Assembly: GCA_041499075.1 (NCBI GenBank)
Contig: JBGQJN010000002.1
Coordinates: 1 to 51,940, forward strand
DNA: 51,940 nucleotides
Reading direction: 5' to 3'
Source: Minisyncoccia bacterium
GTDB lineage: Bacteria > Patescibacteriota > Minisyncoccia > 2-02-FULL-40-12 > IGHO2-01-FULL-4-A
The translations under genes were made by a program, and so were the position numbers. The notes beneath the pieces were generated by a model. That model saw nothing but the letters and a program-made list of their open reading frames with translations, was not told the origin of the DNA and searched no databases. Below, piece after piece: positions 978 through 14,467 of this stretch; position 1 is the first letter of the stretch; each line of letters opens with the position of its first letter.

Positions 978-2963
978 ATGGACACCATTTCACTCTATAA
1001 AAACAGGATTGATGCGCTGATGGACATTCTCTTTGGTGCGGGAGTGTCTAATCCTCAGACGATCATCGAACAATTGAACTACCTGCTCTTTCTTCGCGCG
1101 CTTTCCATCAAAGACGATGAGGCAGAGCTGCTCGGAATCACTGATCAGAGCGAGAAGATCTTCACAGGAGATCTCGCAAAGTACCGATGGCAGAACCTAC
1201 TCGCACTCAATGCAGAAGACTTGTTCAAAACGCTAGAAACTTCTTTCGATCTCCTGCAAAAGAAATCGAAAAATCCCACGGTTAAGTTACTTTTCCGCAA
1301 TGCTCATATCAAGATCTTCGACAAGCCAACACTTCGTCGCGTTCTGCATGAGATAGAGACGTTCGCAAAGGAACTCGACGCGATCGCGCACGAAGGAAAC
1401 AAAGACGTATTCGGTGACATGTACGAGTATCTGCTTTCGAAGCTCTCCTCGGCTGGAACAAACGGGCAGTTCAGAACTCCACGTCACATTATCGACTTCA
1501 TGGTCAAAGTCGTTGATCCAAAGAAAAACGAAACGATACTCGATCCGGCATGCGGAACAGCGGGCTTCCTTGTCGCCGCATATCGTTATATTGCCGGTGA
1601 GTACACCAGTGACAAGCTAAAGAAAGCTGGCAGCCCTCGCGCGATGGATAAACTGTCGGCTGACGAGAAAAACTTCCTGTTCAACCACATGTTCACCGGC
1701 TTCGACAGCGATGAGGACATGATCAAGTTCGGAATGATGAATCTCCATCTCCACGGACTGACAAAGTCACGTCTAGCTCGACAAAACTCACTCACTGACA
1801 CGACGGGGATGAAAGACAAGTTTGATGTCATCCTAGCTAACCCGCCATTCAGTGGGAAGATCGACGAAGAAAGCGTCTCGGAAGATCTGCGTATGGGAAC
1901 AAAGGCAACTGAACTTCTTTTCCTGCGCTTCATGATGGACCACCTCTCACTCAAAGGTAAACTTGCTGTGATTGTCCCAGAGGGGGTTGTGTTCAATGCT
2001 TCGAAAGCCCACACTAAAATCAGGCAAATGCTAATTGAGAAAGGACTTTGGGCTGTTGTTTCATTACCCTCAGGTGTCTTTAATCCTTACGCTGGAGTTA
2101 AGACCAGCCTGCTTTTCCTCGATCAAGAATTAGCTAAAACAAAAGACGAGTTGCTGTTCGTAAAAATCGAGAATGACGGTTTTGACTTAGGTGCGCAACG
2201 ACGACCGTTGGGAAACAATGACCTTCCTTCAGCATTTGAGGCGTTGTCTCAATGGAAGGTTGGAAAGAAAGTCAAAAGTGAACTGACGACTTGGGCCAAC
2301 AAAGAAAAGATCTTAAATAATGTCGACTTAAGTCTTTCAGGTGATCGTTATCAGATGGCAGCGGAGCACAGTAATACAAAATGGCCATTGGTAGAGTTGG
2401 GTGAAGTCTGTGAGATCAATCCTAAAAAAAGTGAGCTCTCTCAACTTCCAAAAGACACACTCGTCTCCTTTGTGCCAATGGCAGATCTACCTGAAAATAA
2501 AAGTACTTTTGACGCAGTACAATCGAGGAAACTTGGTGAAGTAATAAAAGGCTATACGTACTTCAAAAACGATGATGTCCTTCTTGCTAAGGTTACGCCA
2601 TGCTTCGAGAACGGAAAGGCGGGGATCGCTAAAGACTTAAGCAACCAAGTCGGTTTCGGGTCGAGCGAGTTTATAGTTCTGCGATCGTCTCAAAAAATCC
2701 TCCCCGAGCTTATTTATTACTTCATTACGACAGATGAGTTCAGGAAGCTCGGCAAAAAACGTATGACGGGTACAGGAGGCTTAAAGCGCGTCCCTACAGA
2801 CTTTGTTAAGACATTCAAAGTTCCACTCCCTCCTTTGGCAGTCCAAAAACAGATTGTGGCTGAACTCAAAAAAGACGAGGAGCAAGTTAAGAAAAAGGAG
2901 GGTGAAATTGCTCATCTCAGAAAGGAGATGAAGGATAAAGTTGCACAGGTTTGGTCGGCGTAG
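978..2963 (+). CDS. Type I R-M methyltransferase fused to a single-TRD specificity module (HsdM-HsdS half fusion)
   Basis: N6-adenine MTase motifs LDPACGTAGFLV (motif I) and ILANPPFSGK (motif IV). From about residue 470 there is an HsdS-like target recognition domain (WPLVELGEVCEINPKK..VSFVPMADL..KVTPCFENGK..GSSEFIVLR). It ends in the conserved helical LPPLAVQKQIVAEL region. Confidence 0.8.
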   Translation: MDTISLYKNRIDALMDILFGAGVSNPQTIIEQLNYLLFLRALSIKDDEAELLGITDQSEKIFTGDLAKYRWQNLLALNAEDLFKTLETSFDLLQKKSKNPTVKLLFRNAHIKIFDKPTLRRVLHEIETFAKELDAIAHEGNKDVFGDMYEYLLSKLSSAGTNGQFRTPRHIIDFMVKVVDPKKNETILDPACGTAGFLVAAYRYIAGEYTSDKLKKAGSPRAMDKLSADEKNFLFNHMFTGFDSDEDMIKFGMMNLHLHGLTKSRLARQNSLTDTTGMKDKFDVILANPPFSGKIDEESVSEDLRMGTKATELLFLRFMMDHLSLKGKLAVIVPEGVVFNASKAHTKIRQMLIEKGLWAVVSLPSGVFNPYAGVKTSLLFLDQELAKTKDELLFVKIENDGFDLGAQRRPLGNNDLPSAFEALSQWKVGKKVKSELTTWANKEKILNNVDLSLSGDRYQMAAEHSNTKWPLVELGEVCEINPKKSELSQLPKDTLVSFVPMADLPENKSTFDAVQSRKLGEVIKGYTYFKNDDVLLAKVTPCFENGKAGIAKDLSNQVGFGSSEFIVLRSSQKILPELIYYFITTDEFRKLGKKRMTGTGGLKRVPTDFVKTFKVPLPPLAVQKQIVAELKKDEEQVKKKEGEIAHLRKEMKDKVAQVWSA

Positions 2964-3626: not shown

Positions 3627-3849
3627 TTTCGATTGTGTACTCATTGGAGTTCGGTGGAATAGGAACGAAGATAGAGTCGACTTTAACCTCAGTTGGATCT
3701 GCGACATCGATGTCGCGGTCCTTCTTGGTCGTCGTGTGATAGACGGTGAAAATCCATCCACCGGGCACACGAAGTACCGAACTCTCACCACCGCCCCAAC
3801 TGTCTATTCGCTGACCTACCTCCATCTTCAACTGTGCATTTTCATTCAT
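3619..3849 (-). CDS. Hypothetical small protein (76 aa)
   Basis: ORF with protein-like composition. No recognisable domain and a weak RBS. Confidence 0.4.
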   Translation of the reverse strand: MNENAQLKMEVGQRIDSWGGGESSVLRVPGGWIFTVYHTTTKKDRDIDVADPTEVKVDSIFVPIPPNSNEYTIENE

Positions 3850-4392
3850 AAGCGTGATCCGACTTATTAGCTGATAAACACAAAACCCGTCACGGGTCTC
3901 TGGCTTTCGCCAGACGTACAGGTTTCCCCATACGGCGGATCACGCAAACCCCATGACGGGTTCTCTATGCGCGATCCGACTTTCCAGCCATGCCACCGGC
4001 GAACCGATGGTTTAGGCTGTTGCCCTTGCGGGGCTATTCAACTGCTCTTACAGCGTAGCAAAAAAGTGCGAAAAAAGACACTTTTGACGGCACATGGCAC
4101 CAAAGTTATCCACTTGCAGGAAAAAACGGCGGCCGGGATAATATGAGTACGTCGTTCTTTGAAGTTCCAGACAATTCATAAACTGTTGGAGTCTTTCTTC
4201 GGGTAAAACCGTTGGAAGCAACCTCACCGACACAGCAATGTGTTCGTGAGCTACTGAGCTGTATTCAGTGTCAGTGGACCGTTATGCGTACTACGTTAGT
4301 GGCATCGCAGTAGAAATACTGCGTCGAACACACTGTAAAAAGTGTGTCAGGTTATGGAGCCCGAGAGTCAACACTCTCGAGTTGGGATTAGA

Positions 4393-4657: not shown

Positions 4658-6355
4658 ATGAAGGATGCGACTGAATACTGCGTCATAGACTGTCGTGTAA
4701 GTGACCCTAGTCAATTGGAGGGAGGCAGTCTTGACGATCAAGAAATAATTGGGCGACTTGAAGCTCAGAAGTTAGGCCTTAAGATATCTAAGGTCTTTAA
4801 GAAGCCTCACTCGGCTACTACGTCCGAAAGAGATGATATTGAGGAGATATTAAGTTACATAAAAGGAGAGAGAGCGAAAGGGGTTAACCTCACGAAGTAC
4901 ATTGCTAAGAGCATCGATAGGATGACTCGCATGGGATATCCGGCCTTCTTGGACTTCAAAAATGAACTTGAGCATATTGGAGTCGCCATTGTCGATGCTC
5001 AGGGTATTATTCAACCAAAAAGAAACACGTTAGGACATTTCCCCGGAAACTTCGAGTACAAGTGGAGCGTGCACTCTCCAAGCGAGGCGGGAGAAATGCT
5101 CGAGGCATACAAAGGTAAAGCGGAAGTTAGGGACATTTTGACAAGGATGGTGGGAGCGGAAATCAAACTTGTTCAAGATGGATACGCGGTGCGGAGAGCT
5201 CCTGATGGTCTGAAAAACAAACGTGTCATGGTTGATGGAAAGAAGAAGGTTATTAGAGAGGCTAACCCAGAGCGCGTGGACTATTTCATAAAGATGTTCG
5301 AGCTCCTTGCTGATGGTGCGGATTACCCAGAAGTTGCCGACCGTCTGAACGCAGTCGGGTTTAAGACTCAAGTCTACGACCGATGGGACAGAAGCGACAA
5401 AGAAAACCCAAAAGTTGTCGGTAAAAAAGGCGGCAGTCCACTAACGGCCAAACAATTACAGCGATACATCTTGCAGACTGAGTACGCAGGCGTGAGCTAC
5501 GAGAAGTGGACAAAGCATCGGCCTGTAAAAATGCAGCAGTTCAACGGAATTGTGCCCATTGATACATTCAATAAAGCGAATCGAGGGAAAATCTATATCA
5601 GAATGAATAAGGATGAGACGGTCGAAGTTTTGCACAATTACTCACCGTGGGGCAGAGTTAAACGTCTCAAGGATAATCCGAAGTATCCATGGAAATGCAT
5701 CCTCTGTCCCTCCTGTCAGTCAGAGATGCTCGGCAGTTCTGCAAAAGGCAAGTACGATGGGTATCACTGCGGTGCTTGGAAGTCAGGAAAGCGGGCACAC
5801 AAGCATTTTCGAGTGACGAAAAAGGACTTTGAAGATAGCGTATGTGCTTACTTGGACAATCTGAAGTTCGAGGAAGGGTTCATGGCAGGTCTTGAATTGC
5901 ATCTTGTCGAGGAATATCGCAAGAAAGAAAAGGAGATCCTTATCGACTCCTCTCTGATCAGCAGGACTGTTTCTGACCTCAAGGCAGAACTTGCTCAAAA
6001 GATCCACGCATTCGGTCTAGCAGAGAGTCCAACAATGCGAAGGCACCTTGAAGCACAAGCAGAGGCATTGGAAACGCAAATTGAGAAGGCGGAGGGAGAG
6101 CGTGGTCGTGTTGAGCTCAACGAGAGAAGCATTCGAGGATTTCGACGCTACGTTGAATACGTAATGGAACATCCGGCAGAAATCCTGACAAAGGCTGACA
6201 ATTTGCAGGCTCGACGGGCACTTATGAGCCTGTTCTTCGAGGAAATGCCGACCTACCATGACATACTCAATGGAACTGCAAAACTAACAAGCCTATTCAG
6301 GCTTTCTGAAGCATTTAAGGTTGATAAAACCCAACTGGTGAGCCCACCGGAGTAA
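4658..6355 (+). CDS. Large serine recombinase (integrase)
   Basis: N-terminal resolvase-type catalytic motif (VIDCRVSDPSQ), a recombinase domain, a zinc ribbon (CILCPSCQSE...YHCG) and a C-terminal coiled-coil. At 565 aa the size fits the family. Confidence 0.85.
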   Translation: MKDATEYCVIDCRVSDPSQLEGGSLDDQEIIGRLEAQKLGLKISKVFKKPHSATTSERDDIEEILSYIKGERAKGVNLTKYIAKSIDRMTRMGYPAFLDFKNELEHIGVAIVDAQGIIQPKRNTLGHFPGNFEYKWSVHSPSEAGEMLEAYKGKAEVRDILTRMVGAEIKLVQDGYAVRRAPDGLKNKRVMVDGKKKVIREANPERVDYFIKMFELLADGADYPEVADRLNAVGFKTQVYDRWDRSDKENPKVVGKKGGSPLTAKQLQRYILQTEYAGVSYEKWTKHRPVKMQQFNGIVPIDTFNKANRGKIYIRMNKDETVEVLHNYSPWGRVKRLKDNPKYPWKCILCPSCQSEMLGSSAKGKYDGYHCGAWKSGKRAHKHFRVTKKDFEDSVCAYLDNLKFEEGFMAGLELHLVEEYRKKEKEILIDSSLISRTVSDLKAELAQKIHAFGLAESPTMRRHLEAQAEALETQIEKAEGERGRVELNERSIRGFRRYVEYVMEHPAEILTKADNLQARRALMSLFFEEMPTYHDILNGTAKLTSLFRLSEAFKVDKTQLVSPPE

Positions 6356-8792: not shown

Positions 8793-10130
8793 TCAAACCT
8801 TATCAACACTTGCAAGTAGAGCCATGGTCATCCAAAAAATGAAACTTCCCTGCTGGGTGGTCAATAGGAAGTGATCAAAAAGTCCCATTGCAAGCAGTGA
8901 CAGGCCGAATGTGAGAAATGAGAACGAACGGAGTTTAGAGAAGTCAACCCGCCTGACAAACCGCCAGAAAGTAAAAAATAAAAAGAGCAAGAATACAGCC
9001 AAGCCCAGCAAACCGGTTTCGCTAGCGATTAAGAGATAGATATTGTGATCCGGCTGGTAAAGTCCCGGCGGCAGATATTTGAATTTTGACATCATATCGG
9101 GCACGAACTGTCCCAGACCGATACCGGTCAGAGGGTGAGAAGCGGTTACGGATTCGGCAACTTGATTGTAAAAAACCCTTTGAGTAACGGCCTCTTCTTC
9201 GGCCGAGATGTGAACCCTTGATTTAACTTGCGGCCAGTAGAGTAAACAGAATAAAATACTGACTGCCACGGAAACAGACAAGATTATTATTACTTTACTT
9301 TTGATCTCTGATATTTTTTGTCTGTAGTTTCTGCGGCTGAAAGACAATACTAATTGTATAACGATCCCAACACCAAAAAGCACGATAATTACTCTTGAAA
9401 AAGTCAGTAAAAAAGCAAAAAGTATCGCCGCATAAATCAGTAACCAAGGTATTTCGTGGAGGATATTCTTGGGAATGCTTCCAGGTTTGCTCTGTCGGAG
9501 AATGTAATAAAAATAGAAACTGAAAATTGCCGTAAAAAGCCAAGCCGCCAAGATATTCGGATGAGGCGTACTGCCGTAAGCGCGCAGATATCTGTGCGTA
9601 TCAGCGATGAAAACGGCTATACCCTGGGCAGTGACTGAAAGCGGGCTTTCACCAAGCAAACGCAAACCTAAGCTTCCCTGTTTGAGATATTGGGCAATGC
9701 CAATCAGTGCCTGGAGAAATCCGGAAGCAATAATAACTAGGGATGCCTTTTTTAATTCATAAGTCTTACCAAAATTAACCGTCAGATAAAAATAAAATCC
9801 GGTGAATTCAGCGAGCTTGAGCAGTTGATACCAAGAAAGGCTGTTTATATGGGAATTGATAATTGATAACGCTGAAAAAACAAAAAAGATAGACAGCCAA
9901 AATCCCGGGAAGAGCGTGATTTTATTAAAATCCAGTTTCGGCAGTTGACGGGTTCGCCATATCCAGAGAAGAAATAACAAGCCAAGGAGGATATCCGTTC
10001 CGTAGAGATAGGCCGAAGTCCACTGGCTGAAAGGCTGTGTCCAGCTGTGTAAAACCAGCCGAGATTGTATCGGTATTGAAAAAACCAGAAGATAAAAAAC
10101 CAGCCGCTCTGGATTTTTGAGTAATTTCAT
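8793..10130 (-). CDS. O-antigen ligase/polymerase-like (Wzy_C family) polytopic membrane protein
   Basis: More than 10 hydrophobic segments. A large loop is followed by a PDHNIYLLIASETGLLG motif typical of the family. Confidence 0.7.
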   Translation of the reverse strand: MKLLKNPERLVFYLLVFSIPIQSRLVLHSWTQPFSQWTSAYLYGTDILLGLLFLLWIWRTRQLPKLDFNKITLFPGFWLSIFFVFSALSIINSHINSLSWYQLLKLAEFTGFYFYLTVNFGKTYELKKASLVIIASGFLQALIGIAQYLKQGSLGLRLLGESPLSVTAQGIAVFIADTHRYLRAYGSTPHPNILAAWLFTAIFSFYFYYILRQSKPGSIPKNILHEIPWLLIYAAILFAFLLTFSRVIIVLFGVGIVIQLVLSFSRRNYRQKISEIKSKVIIILSVSVAVSILFCLLYWPQVKSRVHISAEEEAVTQRVFYNQVAESVTASHPLTGIGLGQFVPDMMSKFKYLPPGLYQPDHNIYLLIASETGLLGLAVFLLFLFFTFWRFVRRVDFSKLRSFSFLTFGLSLLAMGLFDHFLLTTQQGSFIFWMTMALLASVDKV

Positions 10131-10134
10131 AACG

Positions 10135-11106
10135 CTACGGACGGAGTGCTTTCTTAAAATCTTCGATCATTTTGTTATCCTCCGGATCTACCGCATAGTA
10201 CTCCGCCAGATGAAAGGAAGTGGCTAAGGCAGTAAGTATGCCCGCAAAAGACTTATGCCATAATGATGGGCCGTTAAGCTCGGCGTTCAAAACCGTGAGT
10301 CCCATTTCCTCAAAAATTTTAGCTGTTGCCGACATCCTTTTTTGTATACTTGTTTTGTCGTCAGGGTCATTCAGAAAAACGAAAGCAAATTTGTCAGACA
10401 GATTAGCACCTTTGGCCCTTAAGCCAAAGCCGCTCATTTCATTGTGGTTTAGTTCGGGGAAAGTGTTAAAAAATGCCGGAATCTTGCTGGTTTCATTAAG
10501 ATTTATTTTCCAGTAATAAGCCAAGCCGAGGTTGCGATTAGAAGAGTATATTACGGGGATTTTGTTTTTCAGACCATCTGTCAGACTTTGAGTCGACTGT
10601 TCGTAAGTATCAATATTAAACCTGTCACCCATTTCGGCAATATCTATAAGTATGGATTCCTTACTCATGGCTTTGAGCGTGGCTTTAATGCTCAAGATGA
10701 AAGCAAATCTGGGCTCAATTGCGATTTTCGGCATTTGGATAAAAGGCAATCCCCTTTCTTTGGCCAGTTCAAGCACCTTGCCGGCGGCGGCGATAGCGAT
10801 TATCGGCAAGTTTCGGGCCAGAGCTTCCTCGAAAGCACTTATGGTTTCGGCTGTATTGCCCGAGTACGAACTTACAATGACCAATCTGCCGGCGAACTCT
10901 TTTTCTTCCAATGCCGGCAAACCAAAATCTCTGTGCATTATGACATCAAGCTTTGGCTGCCAGTCCTTGATGATTCCCGCCGCTAGATTTGATCCGCCCA
11001 TGCCGCAGACTATGAATTTTTTATGCGAAGTAAAACCAGCCAGATTTTCTATAACAGGTTCATAAGTAAATTGCTTGGCAATTTTTTTTAGGATGTCAGA
11101 CGTCAT
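10135..11106 (-). CDS. Bifunctional phosphoglucose/phosphomannose isomerase (SIS domain, archaeal-type PGI/PMI)
   Basis: VCGMGGSNLAAG and SSYSGNTAETISAFEEA SIS motifs. At 323 aa the length is typical of the family. Confidence 0.75.
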   Translation of the reverse strand: MTSDILKKIAKQFTYEPVIENLAGFTSHKKFIVCGMGGSNLAAGIIKDWQPKLDVIMHRDFGLPALEEKEFAGRLVIVSSYSGNTAETISAFEEALARNLPIIAIAAAGKVLELAKERGLPFIQMPKIAIEPRFAFILSIKATLKAMSKESILIDIAEMGDRFNIDTYEQSTQSLTDGLKNKIPVIYSSNRNLGLAYYWKINLNETSKIPAFFNTFPELNHNEMSGFGLRAKGANLSDKFAFVFLNDPDDKTSIQKRMSATAKIFEEMGLTVLNAELNGPSLWHKSFAGILTALATSFHLAEYYAVDPEDNKMIEDFKKALRP

Positions 11107-12809: not shown

Positions 12810-12853
12810 TTTTTTAGCGGGCCTGCCCGCCGTAACTCGCTTCGGCGAGCGAA

Positions 12854-12991
12854 GGCGGGAGTGCTAGGAATCTCACTCGCAAATCCTCAACCGGGTGGAC
12901 TCGGATTTGCTCTTGGAAACCAAGCGGTTTCCAACTTCCTCCTCGGGGAAACACCCAGTTTCCCCGACCCCTTCTCGTTCGAATCCTAGCA
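12854..12991. ncRNA. Candidate structured RNA or miniature element abutting tRNA-Trp (copy 1); strand unresolved
   Basis: No ORF. A closing helix encloses three hairpins. The termini copy the tRNA-Trp T-arm and 3' acceptor strand. It is homologous to 13754-13894, with complementarity kept where helix sequence differs. Confidence 0.45.
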
Positions 12992-13045
12992 AAATCTTCA
13001 CAGTTATCAAAATGAACTACCGAACAGCAGTTCATTTTGATATTG

Positions 13046-13116
13046 CGGGAGTGCTAGGATTCGAACCTAGATACCTGGTTTTGGAGACCAGAGTCTTGCC
13101 ATTGGACGACACTCCC
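13046..13116 (-). tRNA. tRNA-Trp (anticodon CCA)
   Basis: Cloverleaf read by hand: acceptor GGGAGTG/CACTCCC, anticodon arm CTGGT-CTCCAAA-ACCAG, T-arm CTAGG-TTCGAAT-CCTAG, discriminator G. CCA is not encoded. Confidence 0.9.
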
Positions 13117-13362: not shown

Positions 13363-13437
13363 TGGAGCCGACGGTGAGAATTGAACTCACGACCTACTCC
13401 TTACCATGGAGTTGCTCTGCCGCTGAGCTACGTCGGC
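13363..13437 (-). tRNA. tRNA-Thr (anticodon GGU), CCA encoded
   Basis: Acceptor GCCGACG/CGTCGGC, anticodon arm ACTCC-ATGGTAA-GGAGT, T-arm GTGAG-TTCAATT-CTCAC, then TCCA. Confidence 0.9.
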
Positions 13438-13482: not shown

Positions 13483-13737
13483 TTATAGTAAACTGCGCAA
13501 TCTTTTTTGGGCTAGTTCATATGCATGTTTGGTTAATTCTTCCATAGCTTCCACCTCACCCCAAAGCTCTCTGCTTAAATTTGATAAATCGGCTGGATCG
13601 TGATTTTGTCTGATATTTTCTAAAAGTTCAGAAATCGTTTTCTGTCTCATACCGATCAGTTCCATGGTAAATTCAAAATCTTGTTGTAATTCTTCTGAAC
13701 TTGGCTTTTCTTTTTCCTTCTTGTCTTCTAATGACAT
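13483..13737 (-). CDS. Hypothetical acidic helical protein (84 aa)
   Basis: ORF located between element copy 2 and tRNA-Thr. No recognisable domain and no clear RBS. Confidence 0.45.
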   Translation of the reverse strand: MSLEDKKEKEKPSSEELQQDFEFTMELIGMRQKTISELLENIRQNHDPADLSNLSRELWGEVEAMEELTKHAYELAQKRLRSLL

Positions 13738-13753
13738 GGAATTTTGTTATTGC

Positions 13754-13894
13754 TGTGAGGGCGGTAGGAATCTTGCGCGTGAGCGCTCAACCCAGTGGAC
13801 TCACGCTCACTTTTAAAAACCTTGCGGTTTTAATATTTCCACAACGGGAAAACTGTTGTTTTCCCGACACCCTTTCCTTGTGCAAATCCTACCA
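13754..13894. ncRNA. Candidate structured RNA or miniature element abutting tRNA-Tyr (copy 2); strand unresolved
   Basis: Same four-helix layout as copy 1, at the same spacing. The termini copy the tRNA-Tyr T-arm and 3' acceptor strand. Confidence 0.45.
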
Positions 13895-13949
13895 TATCTC
13901 TCAATAATTGAAAACTAAAAGCCCATAAATAGGCTCTAGTTTTCAAATG

Positions 13950-14033
13950 TGGGGGCGGTAGGATTTGCACCTACGTAGGCACAAGGCCAGCAGATTTACA
14001 GTCTGCCCTCGTTGACTGCTTGAGTACACCCCC
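13950..14033 (-). tRNA. tRNA-Tyr (anticodon GUA), class II with long variable arm
   Basis: Acceptor GGGGGTG/CGCCCCC, anticodon arm GCAGA-CTGTAAA-TCTGC, long variable arm, T-arm GTAGG-TGCAAAT-CCTAC, discriminator A. CCA is not encoded. Confidence 0.9.
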
Positions 14034-14356: not shown

Positions 14357-14395
14357 TTCATAATAGAGTTACTTTCTCGCTTACGTTTGCCGGTG

Positions 14396-14467
14396 AGCCA
14401 GCGGTCGGGATTGAACCGACGACCTACTGTTTACAAAACAGTTGCTCTGCCACTGAGCTACGCTGGC
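14396..14467 (-). tRNA. tRNA-Thr (anticodon UGU)
   Basis: Acceptor GCCAGCG/CGCTGGC, anticodon arm ACTGT-TTTGTAA-ACAGT, T-arm GTCGG-TTCAATC-CCGAC, discriminator T. CCA is not encoded. Confidence 0.9.

What the first reader, a model, noticed from the sequence alone, without database searches (positions are those of the whole stretch)
13754..13894. Second copy of the element beside tRNA-Tyr: helix sequences differ but complementarity and spacing are preserved
The helix layout recurs at an offset of exactly 900 nt from copy 1:
- P1: 13763-13769/13887-13893.
- P2: 13779-13785/13804-13810.
- P3: 13816-13821/13826-13831.
- P4: 13846-13853/13858-13865.

Helix sequences compared with copy 1:
- P2 is almost entirely different (GTGAGCG/CGCTCAC versus GCAAATCC/GGATTTGC) yet still perfectly complementary.
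- P3 and P4 carry G-C to A-U double changes.
- P1 changes from CTAGGA/TCCTAG to GTAGGA/TCCTAC, tracking the T-stem of the local tRNA.

The P2 loop is conserved: TCAACC-NN-GTGGACTC, 14 of 16 positions. So are GGAATCT after P1 and GAC.CC after P4.

Overall identity is only about 60% by my manual alignment. Retention of pairing where stems have diverged argues for a selected RNA or DNA structure.

A possible P1 extension (13773-13778 with 13880-13885) contains one G-U pair that works only on the + strand. It is not conserved in copy 1, so the strand stays unresolved.
Basis: seen in the sequence. Interest (0 to 1): 0.8.

Follow-up and report, generated by a model that had tools for sequence, protein, structure and literature searches.

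The report
Small mobile hairpin element beside tRNA-Tyr
The folded 140-base segment beside tRNA-Tyr is one of two copies in this window of a tiny, protein-less insertion element found widely in Parcubacteria (CPR bacteria); it sits at the ends of conserved genes and is flanked by a spare copy of that gene end, and how it moves is not known.

Summary
Copy 2 (13754-13894) repeats the four-helix layout of copy 1 (12854-12994) at an offset of 900 nt. The cores are 64% identical and the stem changes are compensated.

Twenty distinct homologues from Parcubacteria genomes and metagenomes confirm helices P2-P4:
- 96.8% of cells are paired.
- 17 of 27 pairs show double changes.
- No Rfam family matches.

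The interpretation needs revising in three ways:
- **P1 is not part of the conserved element.** It pairs a duplicated copy of the neighbouring gene's end with a short inverted copy of it.
- **The element is not tRNA-specific.** The same core sits at the ends of rpoD, rpsJ, fusA, dinB, hppA and pgk.
- **It is an insertion.** Related Yanofskybacteria contigs keep the tRNA-L33 gene order but lack the core at both sites.

The inserted DNA (about 175 bp plus one repeat copy) brings its own AT-rich, terminator-like hairpin. At protein genes the two repeat copies differ mainly at third codon positions (21 of 25). So they are two coding alleles, which fits an element carrying a replacement gene end.

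The stems show almost no G-U or G-T on either strand, so the strand, and RNA versus DNA, stay unresolved. No recombinase is linked to the element.

Best reading: a new kind of miniature, non-autonomous integrative element. Its mechanism is unknown.

The parts
13754..13769 (.). Distal repeat copy (DR1) of copy 2: TGTGAGGGCGGTAGGA. It duplicates the antisense 3' end of tRNA-Tyr, from the last T-loop bases through the T-stem 3' strand and acceptor 3' strand to 1-2 nt past the gene end (ARAGORN and Rfam differ by 1 nt).
   Evidence: 15 of 16 identical to 13948-13963. A second copy of the tRNA 3' end lies 194 nt downstream in tRNA sense.
13763..13769 (.). P1, 5' strand (GGTAGGA). It pairs with 13887-13893 and is made of target-derived sequence.
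13770..13778 (.). Junction J1 (ATCTTGCGC): a degenerate remnant of the reverse-complemented T-loop between DR1 and P2.
   Evidence: In L108 and L142 the same position is still a near-perfect reverse-complemented T-loop (ATCGAAC).
13779..13810 (.). P2 hairpin (GTGAGCG / CGCTCAC) with the conserved loop CTCAACC-NN-GTGGACTC, which includes an inner 2-bp CC/GG helix.
   Evidence: P2 is replaced by short unrelated hairpins in L135, L137, L138 and L147, so it is the least essential helix.
13811..13831 (.). Linker CTTTT plus the P3 hairpin (AAAACC TTGC GGTTTT). The top 5 bp AAACC/GGTTT are invariant or nearly so in 20 copies.
13832..13866 (.). Linker AATATTTCCACAA plus the P4 hairpin (CGGGAAAAC TGTT GTTTTCCCG).
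13867..13879 (.). Junction J4 (ACACCCTTTCCTT): a conserved pyrimidine-rich tail of the core (consensus GACCCCTTTCC).
13880..13893 (.). Inverted target copy (invX): GTGCAAATCCTACC, which is the T-loop, the T-stem 3' strand and one further base in tRNA sense. Its 3' part is the P1 3' strand. It can also pair with the real gene at 13957-13970.
   Evidence: 14 of 14 complementary to the tRNA gene. Such inverted copies occur only beside tRNAs that carry an insertion.
13894..13947 (.). Spacer with an AT-rich hairpin (about 13908-13946) flanked by A and T runs. It is a terminator-like hairpin for tRNA-Tyr and, by analogy with copy 1, part of the inserted DNA.
   Evidence: Terminator-like hit on the minus strand at 13937-13918. 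At the Trp site the equivalent hairpin is absent from empty sites.
13948..14033 (-). tRNA-Tyr(GTA), the target gene. Its 3' end, 13948-13963, is the proximal repeat copy (DR2).
12855..13059 (.). Copy 1 with the same anatomy:
- DR1: 12855-12869.
- Core P2-P4: 12874-12978.
- invX: 12978-12991.
- Spacer hairpin: 13007-13040.
- DR2: 13045-13059, inside tRNA-Trp (13045-13116, minus strand).
   Evidence: Alignment with the empty sites in L143 and L145 shows that about 190 bp are extra in the window.

Best explanation
Copy 2 and copy 1 are two members of a family of miniature, non-coding, non-autonomous insertion elements of Parcubacteria (Patescibacteria/CPR).

**Anatomy.** A conserved core of about 85-120 nt is made of hairpins P2, P3 and P4 and pyrimidine-rich linkers. 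The core is embedded in target-derived sequence. Read on the window + strand, the order is:
1. a copy of the end of the neighbouring gene (DR1);
2. the core;
3. a 6-17-nt inverted copy of that gene end (invX);
4. a spacer that supplies what the gene needs: a terminator-like hairpin for tRNAs (inferred function), or a stop codon for 3' ends;
5. the gene itself, whose end is DR2.

**Most likely history.**
- The element integrates by recombination within the segment shared between the element-borne gene end and the chromosomal gene.
- For tRNAs the crossover is in or next to the T-loop, as for classical tRNA-targeting integrative elements.
- The gene is rebuilt with an element-borne end, and the original end is displaced to the far side.
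- The duplicated conserved gene end then gives homology on both sides. This would let the cassette spread between diverged genomes by homologous or homology-facilitated recombination after DNA uptake, or through a recombinase acting in trans.

**Shown here:** the insertion polymorphism, the duplication, the element-borne hairpin, allelic repeat copies, many targets, and repeated hits on the same target.

**Inferred, not shown:** the enzyme; whether the intermediate is single-stranded DNA, double-stranded DNA or RNA; what the P2-P4 core does (for example a recognition module or a folded single-strand structure); and how invX is generated.
For: **Insertion polymorphism**
- Three related Yanofskybacteria contigs share the gene order: L143 and L144 carry tRNA-Thr/Tyr/Thr-L33-tRNA-Trp, and the shorter L145 carries tRNA-Thr-L33-tRNA-Trp. 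None has the core.
- In L143 and L145 the sequence that directly follows tRNA-Trp (CTTCGCC..GGCGGG..) follows the distal repeat in the window.
- The spacer hairpin, invX, the core and one repeat are therefore about 190 bp of extra DNA.

**Repeats bound every informative copy**
- 15-23 nt at tRNAs, always starting in or next to the T-loop.
- 36 nt, perfect, at rpoD. The native TAG stop and terminator lie after the distal copy, and a new TGA lies after the proximal copy.
- About 27 nt at rpsJ, 35 nt at dinB, 62 nt at fusA and about 100 nt at hppA.

**The repeat copies are two coding alleles**
- 21 of 25 substitutions are at third codon positions (P = 2.6e-7).
- Two diverged PGK C-termini flank the copy in L146.

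**The core moves between targets**
- The same core sits at 10 or more different targets.
- Core relatedness does not follow the target. Window copy 1 (Trp) is 84% identical to L124 (Tyr), while window copy 2 (Tyr) is closest to L122 (dinB, 74%).
- The tRNA-Tyr site is occupied by three different variants of this core, by a different-core element in L143, and is empty in L144.

**invX belongs to the insertion**
- Inverted target copies occur only beside tRNAs that carry an insertion. None of 27 insertion-free tRNAs has one with 2 or fewer mismatches.

**The core structure is conserved**
- Covariation is strong.

**The family is widespread and unannotated**
- 169 spurious ORFs overlie it in public assemblies. 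The named sources are Jorgensen-, Sung- and Doudnabacteria and the Parcubacteria group; the L108 copy is from Yanofskybacteria.
- It is absent from Rfam.
Against: - **No enzyme.** No integrase, transposase or reverse transcriptase lies inside or consistently near the element. In the 52-kb window there is only a weak serine-recombinase-like ORF 7 kb away.
- **No recent jump seen.** I found no autonomous relative, and no near-identical copies at different sites of one genome that would show recent transposition.
- **invX is unexplained.** None of the integration or transposition mechanisms considered here produces a direct repeat of 15-100 nt plus an inverted copy of the target around a conserved core.
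- **An alternative for the codon pattern.** The third-position pattern could also arise if the gene itself was later replaced by allelic recombination.
- **An RNA role is not excluded.** Strong conservation of hairpins and linkers could mean the core has a host or RNA function that I have not identified.
- **Weaker empty-site evidence for copy 2.** The downstream flanks at the Tyr site are not alignable between genomes.
Confidence: 0.6

Rival explanations
1. A stand-alone or cis-acting structured RNA. The four-helix fold would be a functional non-coding RNA linked to tRNA genes, for example a processing, stability or regulatory element co-transcribed with the tRNA. P1 would co-evolve with the T-stem.
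For: - Strong compensatory covariation in P2-P4 and conserved unpaired linkers.
- Folds well as RNA.
- The invariant P2 internal loop would read GAGU/UUGA (tandem G-A) in tRNA sense. This is my reading of the sequence, not a tool result.
Against: - P1 is a literal duplicate plus an inverted copy of the neighbouring gene end, not a covarying helix.
- The element also occurs at protein-gene ends, in both orientations relative to transcription.
- It is absent from orthologous sites in relatives.
- A terminator-like hairpin separates it from the tRNA.
- No conserved promoter is apparent: the upstream flanks are target-derived and differ at every site.
- Only 4 one-sided (wobble) changes against 67 double changes.
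- No Rfam match.
Confidence: 0.15
2. A nucleic-acid-guided (programmable) mobile element. The conserved hairpin core would be a scaffold, and the flanking target copy and inverted target copy would act as guide segments. Together they would direct a trans-acting recombinase, nuclease or reverse transcriptase to the gene end, in the spirit of bridge/seek RNAs, omega RNAs or group II intron EBS-IBS pairing.
For: - Both flanks of the core are re-made to match every new target, while the core stays constant.
- invX always matches the gene-contiguous copy and ends at the inner repeat boundary.
- No sequence motif common to the targets is evident.
Against: - No IS110, TnpB, IscB or reverse-transcriptase gene is associated. 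RVT_1 appears once, 7.5 kb away, in L139/L140.
- The two putative guide segments are complementary to each other, unlike known dual guides.
- Repeats of up to 100 nt are not produced by known guided recombinases.
- No expression evidence.
Confidence: 0.15
3. A scar or remnant of larger integrated elements (prophage, ICE or CIME-like). What is left would be attL and attR joined by the att arm sequences after the body of an integrative element was deleted.
For: - The repeat pattern is exactly that of tyrosine-integrase att sites: the identity block runs from the T-loop to the tRNA 3' end, and replacement gene ends carry synonymous differences. That this matches known att sites is from my own knowledge.
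Against: - In all of about 23 loci the core abuts invX directly, and no longer version with genes was found between the repeats.
- The same core serves 10 or more unrelated targets, which one sequence-specific integrase would not do.
- The core is hairpins with covarying stems rather than arm-type protein-binding repeats.
- No match in phage, plasmid or viral collections.
Confidence: 0.07

Closest known systems
tRNA- and gene-end-targeting integrative elements: tyrosine-integrase prophages and genomic islands such as P4-like elements in tRNA genes and phage 21/e14 in icd, and their integrase-less derivatives (cis-mobilizable elements, CIMEs). This comparison rests on my own knowledge.
   Same: - A direct repeat runs from a crossover point inside the gene (the T-loop for tRNAs) to the gene end.
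- The inserted DNA rebuilds the gene.
- The two copies of a protein-gene end differ by synonymous changes.
- Highly conserved genes are preferred as targets.
   Different: - Only about 110-190 bp, with no integrase or any other gene.
- One conserved core is used at 10 or more unrelated targets.
- The core consists of covarying hairpins.
- An additional inverted copy of the target lies on the other side of the core.
Folded single-stranded recombination sites: the CTXphi attP(+) hairpin used by XerCD, and integron attC sites.
   Same: - An inverted repeat of the attachment sequence (invX-spacer-X) could fold into a duplex mimic of the target.
- The stems are conserved by pairing rather than by sequence and are Watson-Crick on both strands.
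- The integrated form has repeats, with an inverted arm next to one end.
   Different: - The target is not dif or attI but many different gene ends.
- No Xer-type or IntI-type site features were identified.
- The structure is a multi-hairpin core rather than a single imperfect hairpin.
- A single-stranded intermediate has not been shown.
Bacterial MITEs and other small hairpin-forming repeats: Correia, RUP, REP/BIME, Rickettsia palindromic elements, and mitochondrial double-hairpin or repetitive hairpin-forming elements.
   Same: - Small, non-coding, structured, multi-copy and intergenic or at gene ends.
- Tolerated within transcription or translation units: an ORF stays open through the core, as in Rickettsia palindromic elements.
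   Different: - The terminal inverted repeats are target-derived rather than element-specific.
- The duplication is long and variable (15-100 nt) and coincides with gene ends, not a fixed 2-10-bp target-site duplication.
- No related transposase-bearing insertion sequence is known.
Guide-RNA-encoding mobile elements: IS110/IS1111 bridge or seek RNAs, IS200/605 omega RNAs, and CAST homing spacers.
   Same: - A conserved structured scaffold is flanked by sequence that matches the adjacent conserved target gene.
- Specificity appears to be encoded in nucleic acid and can be reprogrammed.
   Different: - No associated recombinase, nuclease or transposase.
- The target-matching segments are mutually complementary and up to 100 nt long.
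- Long direct repeats are present.

Membership tests
Any curated RNA family (Rfam 15) | Covariance-model match at or near the gathering score | tested here: not met
   No family matches either copy or six homologous loci, even at E <= 1-10. Only tRNAs and chance microRNA hits on the long hairpin appear.
tRNA-targeting integrative element (tyrosine-integrase type) | A direct repeat (identity block) running from the anticodon loop or T-loop to the 3' end of the tRNA gene and bounding the inserted DNA | tested here: met
   Repeats of 15-23 nt start in or next to the T-loop at the Trp, Tyr, Ile, Asp, Met, Pro, Ser and Leu genes.
tRNA-targeting integrative element (tyrosine-integrase type) | An integrase gene inside the element, next to one att site | tested here: not met
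   The repeat-bounded segment is 140-200 bp with no gene. The window has no Phage_integrase hit. No longer repeat-bounded version was found within 6 kb of 49 tRNAs.
tRNA-targeting integrative element (tyrosine-integrase type) | Presence/absence polymorphism, with the native flank following the distal repeat | tested here: met
   L143 and L145 are empty at the Trp site, and their downstream flank aligns with the sequence after the distal repeat in the window. L144 is empty at the Tyr site.
MITE (non-autonomous derivative of a DDE transposon) | Element-specific terminal inverted repeats, a short target-site duplication of fixed length, and a related transposase-encoding insertion sequence | tested here: not met
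   The inverted termini are copies of the target and differ at every site. The duplication is 15-100 nt and variable. No transposase relative was found.
Integron attC / CTXphi-type folded single-stranded att site | An imperfect hairpin formed by inverted att half-sites and recognised by IntI or XerCD; the target is attI or dif | tested here: inconclusive
   - invX-spacer-X can form a 6-17-bp stem.
- The stems are Watson-Crick on both strands.
- The targets are diverse gene ends rather than attI or dif.
- No IntI was seen, and a single-stranded intermediate cannot be tested with these tools.
IS110/IS1111 bridge (seek) RNA | Encoded in the non-coding end of an element that carries a DEDD/IS110 recombinase; two internal loops hold short, non-overlapping target and donor guides; 2-nt core duplication | tested here: not met
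   No such recombinase in the window or next to any copy. The target-matching segments overlap and pair with each other. The repeats are 15-100 nt.
Structured functional RNA in general | Helices supported by covariation that includes G-U intermediates and strand asymmetry; own promoter or defined transcript | tested here: inconclusive
   - Covariation is strong: 17 of 27 pairs.
- There are only 4 one-sided changes in 507 cells.
- Wobble and A-C mismatches are equally rare on both strands.
- No conserved promoter was seen on inspection.
- No transcript data are available.

The most novel reading that the evidence does not exclude
The element would be a self-contained, protein-less mobile module whose target specificity is written in nucleic acid. 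A conserved three-hairpin scaffold is closed by a helix built from a copy and an inverted copy of the target gene end. This target-derived helix, re-made at every new site, would guide insertion. It could do so either as a folded single strand that mimics the duplex target or as a guide for a still unknown trans-acting enzyme. The duplicated conserved gene end would then serve as a portable homology arm for spread between diverged CPR genomes by natural transformation.
Probability: 0.2. Interest if true: 0.9.

Novelty: new variant of a known kind. Interest (0 to 1): 0.72.

Why it matters
- **New to the literature and databases searched.** CPR/Patescibacteria have very small genomes. I found no description of this family in Rfam, in phage, plasmid or viral collections, or in the papers I could search.
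- **Unusual combination of features.** It has the gene-restoring att logic of large integrative elements and the size of a MITE. It also has a covarying hairpin core with no wobble pairs and a target-derived closing helix.
- **Possible new route of mobility.** If the helix or the duplicated gene end turns out to direct insertion or spread, this would be a route of DNA mobility that needs no element-encoded protein, or a new guide-like system.
- **Practical consequences.** The family generates at least 169 spurious 'hypothetical proteins' in public databases. It also creates pseudo gene ends and pseudo tRNA fragments that can mislead annotation.

Tried and rejected
**Wasted or empty searches**
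- The single genome-contig scan went on the bare 14-base P2-loop motif. Almost all 120 hits were chance or coding matches, many in one shared coding motif I took to be purH. Only L108 was real.
- Scans of viral contigs, phage genomes and plasmids found nothing.
- Rfam at permissive thresholds found nothing.
- Four literature searches found no description.

**Tests that did not discriminate**
- Calling the strand from G-U versus A-C mismatches failed because both are almost absent.

**Ideas considered and rejected**
- A simple target-site duplication followed by neutral decay of the extra copy. It does not fit 21 of 25 differences at third codon positions.
- A native terminator between the tRNA and the element. 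The hairpin is missing from the empty sites.
- invX as a native feature of tRNA trailers. It is absent from insertion-free tRNAs.
- A tRNA-specific role. The same core sits at protein-gene ends.
- Reverse-transcription stops at T-loop modifications as the origin of the repeat boundary. The mismatch positions do not fit, and protein genes show the same architecture.
- Snap-back synthesis from the terminator hairpin. The predicted sequence after the hairpin does not match.
- The resemblance of the P3-to-P4 segment to a CRISPR repeat or its 5' handle. It rests on stem positions that covary, so it is not conserved. The resemblance was recalled from memory only.
- The large serine recombinase-like ORF at 4658-6355 as the mobilising enzyme. 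Such enzymes leave 2-bp crossovers rather than long repeats, and this ORF lies beside the LOOT RNA, not beside the element.

Full report
**1. What is at the coordinates**

All four tRNA genes in this part of the window are on the minus strand:

| tRNA | Coordinates |
|---|---|
| Trp | 13045-13116 |
| Thr (GGT) | 13363-13437 |
| Tyr | 13949-14033 |
| Thr (TGT) | 14395-14467 |

- Copy 2 (13754-13894) lies just 3' of tRNA-Tyr in tRNA sense. An AT-rich hairpin (about 13908-13946) separates them.
- Copy 1 (12854-12994) lies in the same way 3' of tRNA-Trp, behind the hairpin 13007-13040.
- The 16-nt P2-loop motif occurs without mismatch only at 12887 and 13787, exactly 900 nt apart.
- The two copies align with a single 3-nt indel. 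Their cores are 64% identical.
- Both fold far better than shuffled controls on either strand, as RNA and as DNA.
- No Rfam family matches.

**2. Homologues**

- The bare loop motif was too short for the genome collection. That scan was wasted apart from one true hit, L108, in a Candidatus Yanofskybacteria genome.
- A longer pattern gave 14 metagenome loci.
- The core has several open reading frames. I therefore used its translation as a protein profile and found 73, then 169, spurious 'hypothetical proteins' that overlie copies of the element.
- The named sources of those ORFs are Jorgensen-, Sung- and Doudnabacteria and the Parcubacteria group. One record is labelled an MSBL1 archaeon.
- Fetching contigs for some of these hits gave further loci: L135-L142, L146 and L147.
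- A profile of the P3-P4 region finds one copy per locus, two in the window, and no others in the 52 kb.

**3. The core structure is real**

A hand census of 21 copies gave 506 Watson-Crick pairs in P2-P4 and only a handful of G-T or A-C pairs. A covariance-model alignment of 20 distinct copies gave these results:
- 96.8% of cells are paired, against 82.6% in shuffles (0 of 500 reach the observed value).
- 17 of 27 pairs show changes on both sides.
- Slid controls give 18-60% paired.
- There are 67 double-change cells against only 4 one-sided (wobble) changes.

Other features of the core:
- P3's upper five pairs (AAACC/GGTTT) and the linkers CTCYTT, TTCC and GACCCCTTTCC are nearly invariant.
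- P2 is dispensable. It is a long hairpin with the conserved loop in one subfamily and a short unrelated hairpin in L135, L137, L138 and L147.
- Because wobble pairs are almost absent on both strands, the strand cannot be called. Neither can RNA be distinguished from DNA by this test.

**4. P1 and the flanks are target-derived**

On the + strand every informative copy reads, in order:
1. a direct copy of the neighbouring gene's end (DR1);
2. the core;
3. a short inverted copy of that end (invX);
4. a spacer;
5. the gene itself.

For copy 2:
- DR1 is 13754-13769 and is 15 of 16 identical to 13948-13963.
- invX is 13880-13893 and is 14 of 14 complementary to the tRNA gene.

For copy 1:
- DR1 is 12855-12869 and equals 13045-13059.

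Hence P1 'tracks' the T-stem because it is a copy of it.

Targets found so far:

| Target | Loci | Repeat |
|---|---|---|
| tRNA 3' ends (Trp, Tyr, Ile, Asp, Gly, Met, Pro, Ser, Leu) | window and several loci | 15-23 nt where a repeat is recognisable |
| rpoD 3' end | L133 | 36 nt, perfect; native TAG and terminator follow the distal copy, a new TGA follows the proximal copy |
| rpsJ 3' end | L129/L132 | about 27 nt |
| hppA 3' end | L147 | about 100 nt |
| pgk 3' end | L146 and several spurious ORFs | two diverged C-termini |
| fusA 5' end | L135 | 62 nt |
| dinB 5' end | L122/L134 | 35 nt |

- The gene body is always on the invX side. Relative to transcription of the gene, the core can therefore be in either orientation. 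This rules out a single cis-acting RNA role.
- Inverted copies of the T-arm occur only beside tRNAs that carry an insertion.

**5. It is an insertion**

- The window's L33 protein is 79-87% identical to Yanofskybacteria proteins.
- Three related contigs share the gene order: L143 and L144 carry tRNA-Thr, Tyr, Thr, L33 and tRNA-Trp, and the shorter L145 carries tRNA-Thr, L33 and tRNA-Trp. None has the core.
- In L143 and L145, tRNA-Trp is followed directly by CTTCGCC...GGCGGG... In the window this sequence follows the distal repeat. So the proximal tRNA 3' end or the distal repeat, together with the hairpin, invX and the core, are about 190 bp of extra DNA.
- The AT-rich, terminator-like hairpin therefore came with the element and is not native.
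- L144 is empty at the Tyr site.
- L143 carries, at the same Tyr site and bounded by the same 14-nt repeat, a different 200-nt multi-hairpin insertion.
- Further repeat-bounded insertions with other cores follow tRNA-Met in L126 and tRNA-Leu in L137. The architecture is thus shared by a wider group of elements.

**6. The repeat copies are two alleles**

- At fusA, dinB, rpsJ and hppA, 21 of 25 substitutions between the two copies are at third codon positions (P = 2.6e-7).
- At pgk the two copies are recognisable only at protein level.
- So both copies evolved as coding sequence. This fits an element that brings a replacement gene end from another lineage, as known for prophages that integrate into genes. 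Later allelic recombination of the gene would also fit.
- It does not fit a simple target duplication that then decays.
- In some cases the differences cluster in one half of the repeat (L147, L129, L135). That is what crossovers inside the repeat would give (my inference).

**7. Relationships between copies**

- Core relatedness does not follow the target. Copy 1 (Trp) is closest to L125 (86%) and to L124 (Tyr site, 84%). Copy 2 (Tyr) is closest to L122 (dinB site, 74%).
- Individual hairpins are shuffled between copies.
- The tRNA-Tyr site has been occupied independently several times.

**8. Enzymes and context**

- The window encodes no tyrosine integrase, transposase or reverse transcriptase.
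- A 565-aa ORF with a weak resolvase domain lies 7 kb away, next to a LOOT RNA.
- Neighbours of the other copies are ordinary housekeeping genes.
- Nothing matches in viral contigs, phages or plasmids.
- The flanks upstream of the core are target-derived and differ at every site, so I saw no conserved promoter by inspection. In tRNA sense, the terminator-like hairpin precedes the core.

**9. Interpretation**

*Most likely (0.6):* a miniature, non-autonomous integrative element.
- It recombines within a gene-end segment that it carries.
- It rebuilds the gene, supplying a terminator-like hairpin or a stop codon. At the two 5'-end insertions the leader ORF ends at the true start codon, which suggests translational coupling.
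- It displaces the native gene end.
- The duplicated conserved gene end would give homology on both sides of the cargo. This offers a route for spread by homologous or homology-facilitated recombination in these naturally competent bacteria. That they are naturally competent is from my own knowledge, not tested here.
- Alternatively, an unknown recombinase acts in trans.

*Not explained:*
- how the inverted target copy is made anew at each target;
- what the conserved hairpin core does;
- why its stems avoid wobble pairs.

The wobble-free stems and the invX-spacer-X hairpin recall folded single-stranded att sites such as CTXphi attP and integron attC. This is a resemblance only and was not tested.

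*Rivals:* a conventional tRNA-linked RNA (0.15), a guide-like programmable element (0.15) and an att scar of larger elements (0.07). They are set out with their evidence in the rival explanations.

**10. Verdict**

It is wrong on the nature of P1 and on tRNA specificity.
- I classify the element as a new variant of known kinds (integrative element and MITE). There is a real chance that its mechanism is new.

Noticed in passing
window 3899-4018 (-), with 978-2963 (+) and 4658-6355 (+): A LOOT RNA (91 bits) lies between two ORFs. One is a type I restriction-modification methylase/specificity fusion. The other is a 565-aa ORF with a weak Resolvase N-terminal domain, possibly a large serine recombinase. 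Together they may form a small mobile island.
   Followed up: partly
window 12815-12853 (read on the minus strand); L143 6250-6300; L145 632-690: The trailer that natively follows tRNA-Trp (CTTCGC...GCGAAG-like stem plus a GGCGGG...CCCGC hairpin) is conserved between the window and two related genomes. Part of it can pair with the tRNA's 3' end. Its function is unknown.
   Followed up: partly
L143 5333-5533 and 5597-5860: At the same tRNA-Tyr site, bounded by the same 14-nt repeat, sits a 200-nt multi-hairpin insertion with a different core. One of its hairpins is P3-like but in the opposite orientation. An 87-aa GIY-YIG ORF follows immediately.
   Followed up: partly
L126 downstream of tRNA-Met 3785-3857 (c); L137 downstream of tRNA-Leu 10846-10930: Two further repeat-bounded insertions with inverted T-arm copies but other cores. 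One is 172 nt and GC-rich. The other is an 85-nt mini-version with a single P3-like hairpin. They suggest a superfamily that shares the architecture.
   Followed up: partly
L135 2890-3070, L122 1130-1300, L147 1290-1490, L133 9000-9180: An ORF stays open through the core and is in frame with the displaced gene-end copy.
- At the 5'-end insertions it starts at the displaced ATG. It stops 17 nt before the true start in fusA and overlaps it (ATATGATG) in dinB.
- At hppA it starts at a TGATG stop/start overlap and runs into the distal C-terminus.

This could reflect selection against polarity, or ascertainment bias.
   Followed up: partly
window 13483-13737 (-); L143 5597-5860; L144 2495-2680: The slot between tRNA-Tyr and tRNA-Thr(GGT) holds a different small ORF in each related genome: an 84-aa ORF of unknown function in the window, a GIY-YIG ORF in L143, and another ORF in L144. 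It looks like a variable hot spot.
   Followed up: no
L139 about 9880-9990 (locus + strand), beyond the distal repeat: A second, perfect inverted copy of the tRNA-Pro T-loop/T-stem (GCTGGGAATCGAA) lies 10 nt beyond the distal repeat, with no recognisable core. It may be a remnant of an older insertion. An RVT_1 ORF lies 7.5 kb away.
   Followed up: no
L128 89-391 (-): A group I intron hit just under the gathering score (49.6 against 50 bits) on a CPR metagenome contig that also carries the element.
   Followed up: no
L146 (LHYJ01000055.1): A typical copy of the element follows pgk on a 2-kb contig deposited as a candidate division MSBL1 archaeon single-cell genome. This is either contamination by a CPR bacterium or occurrence across domains.
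   Followed up: no
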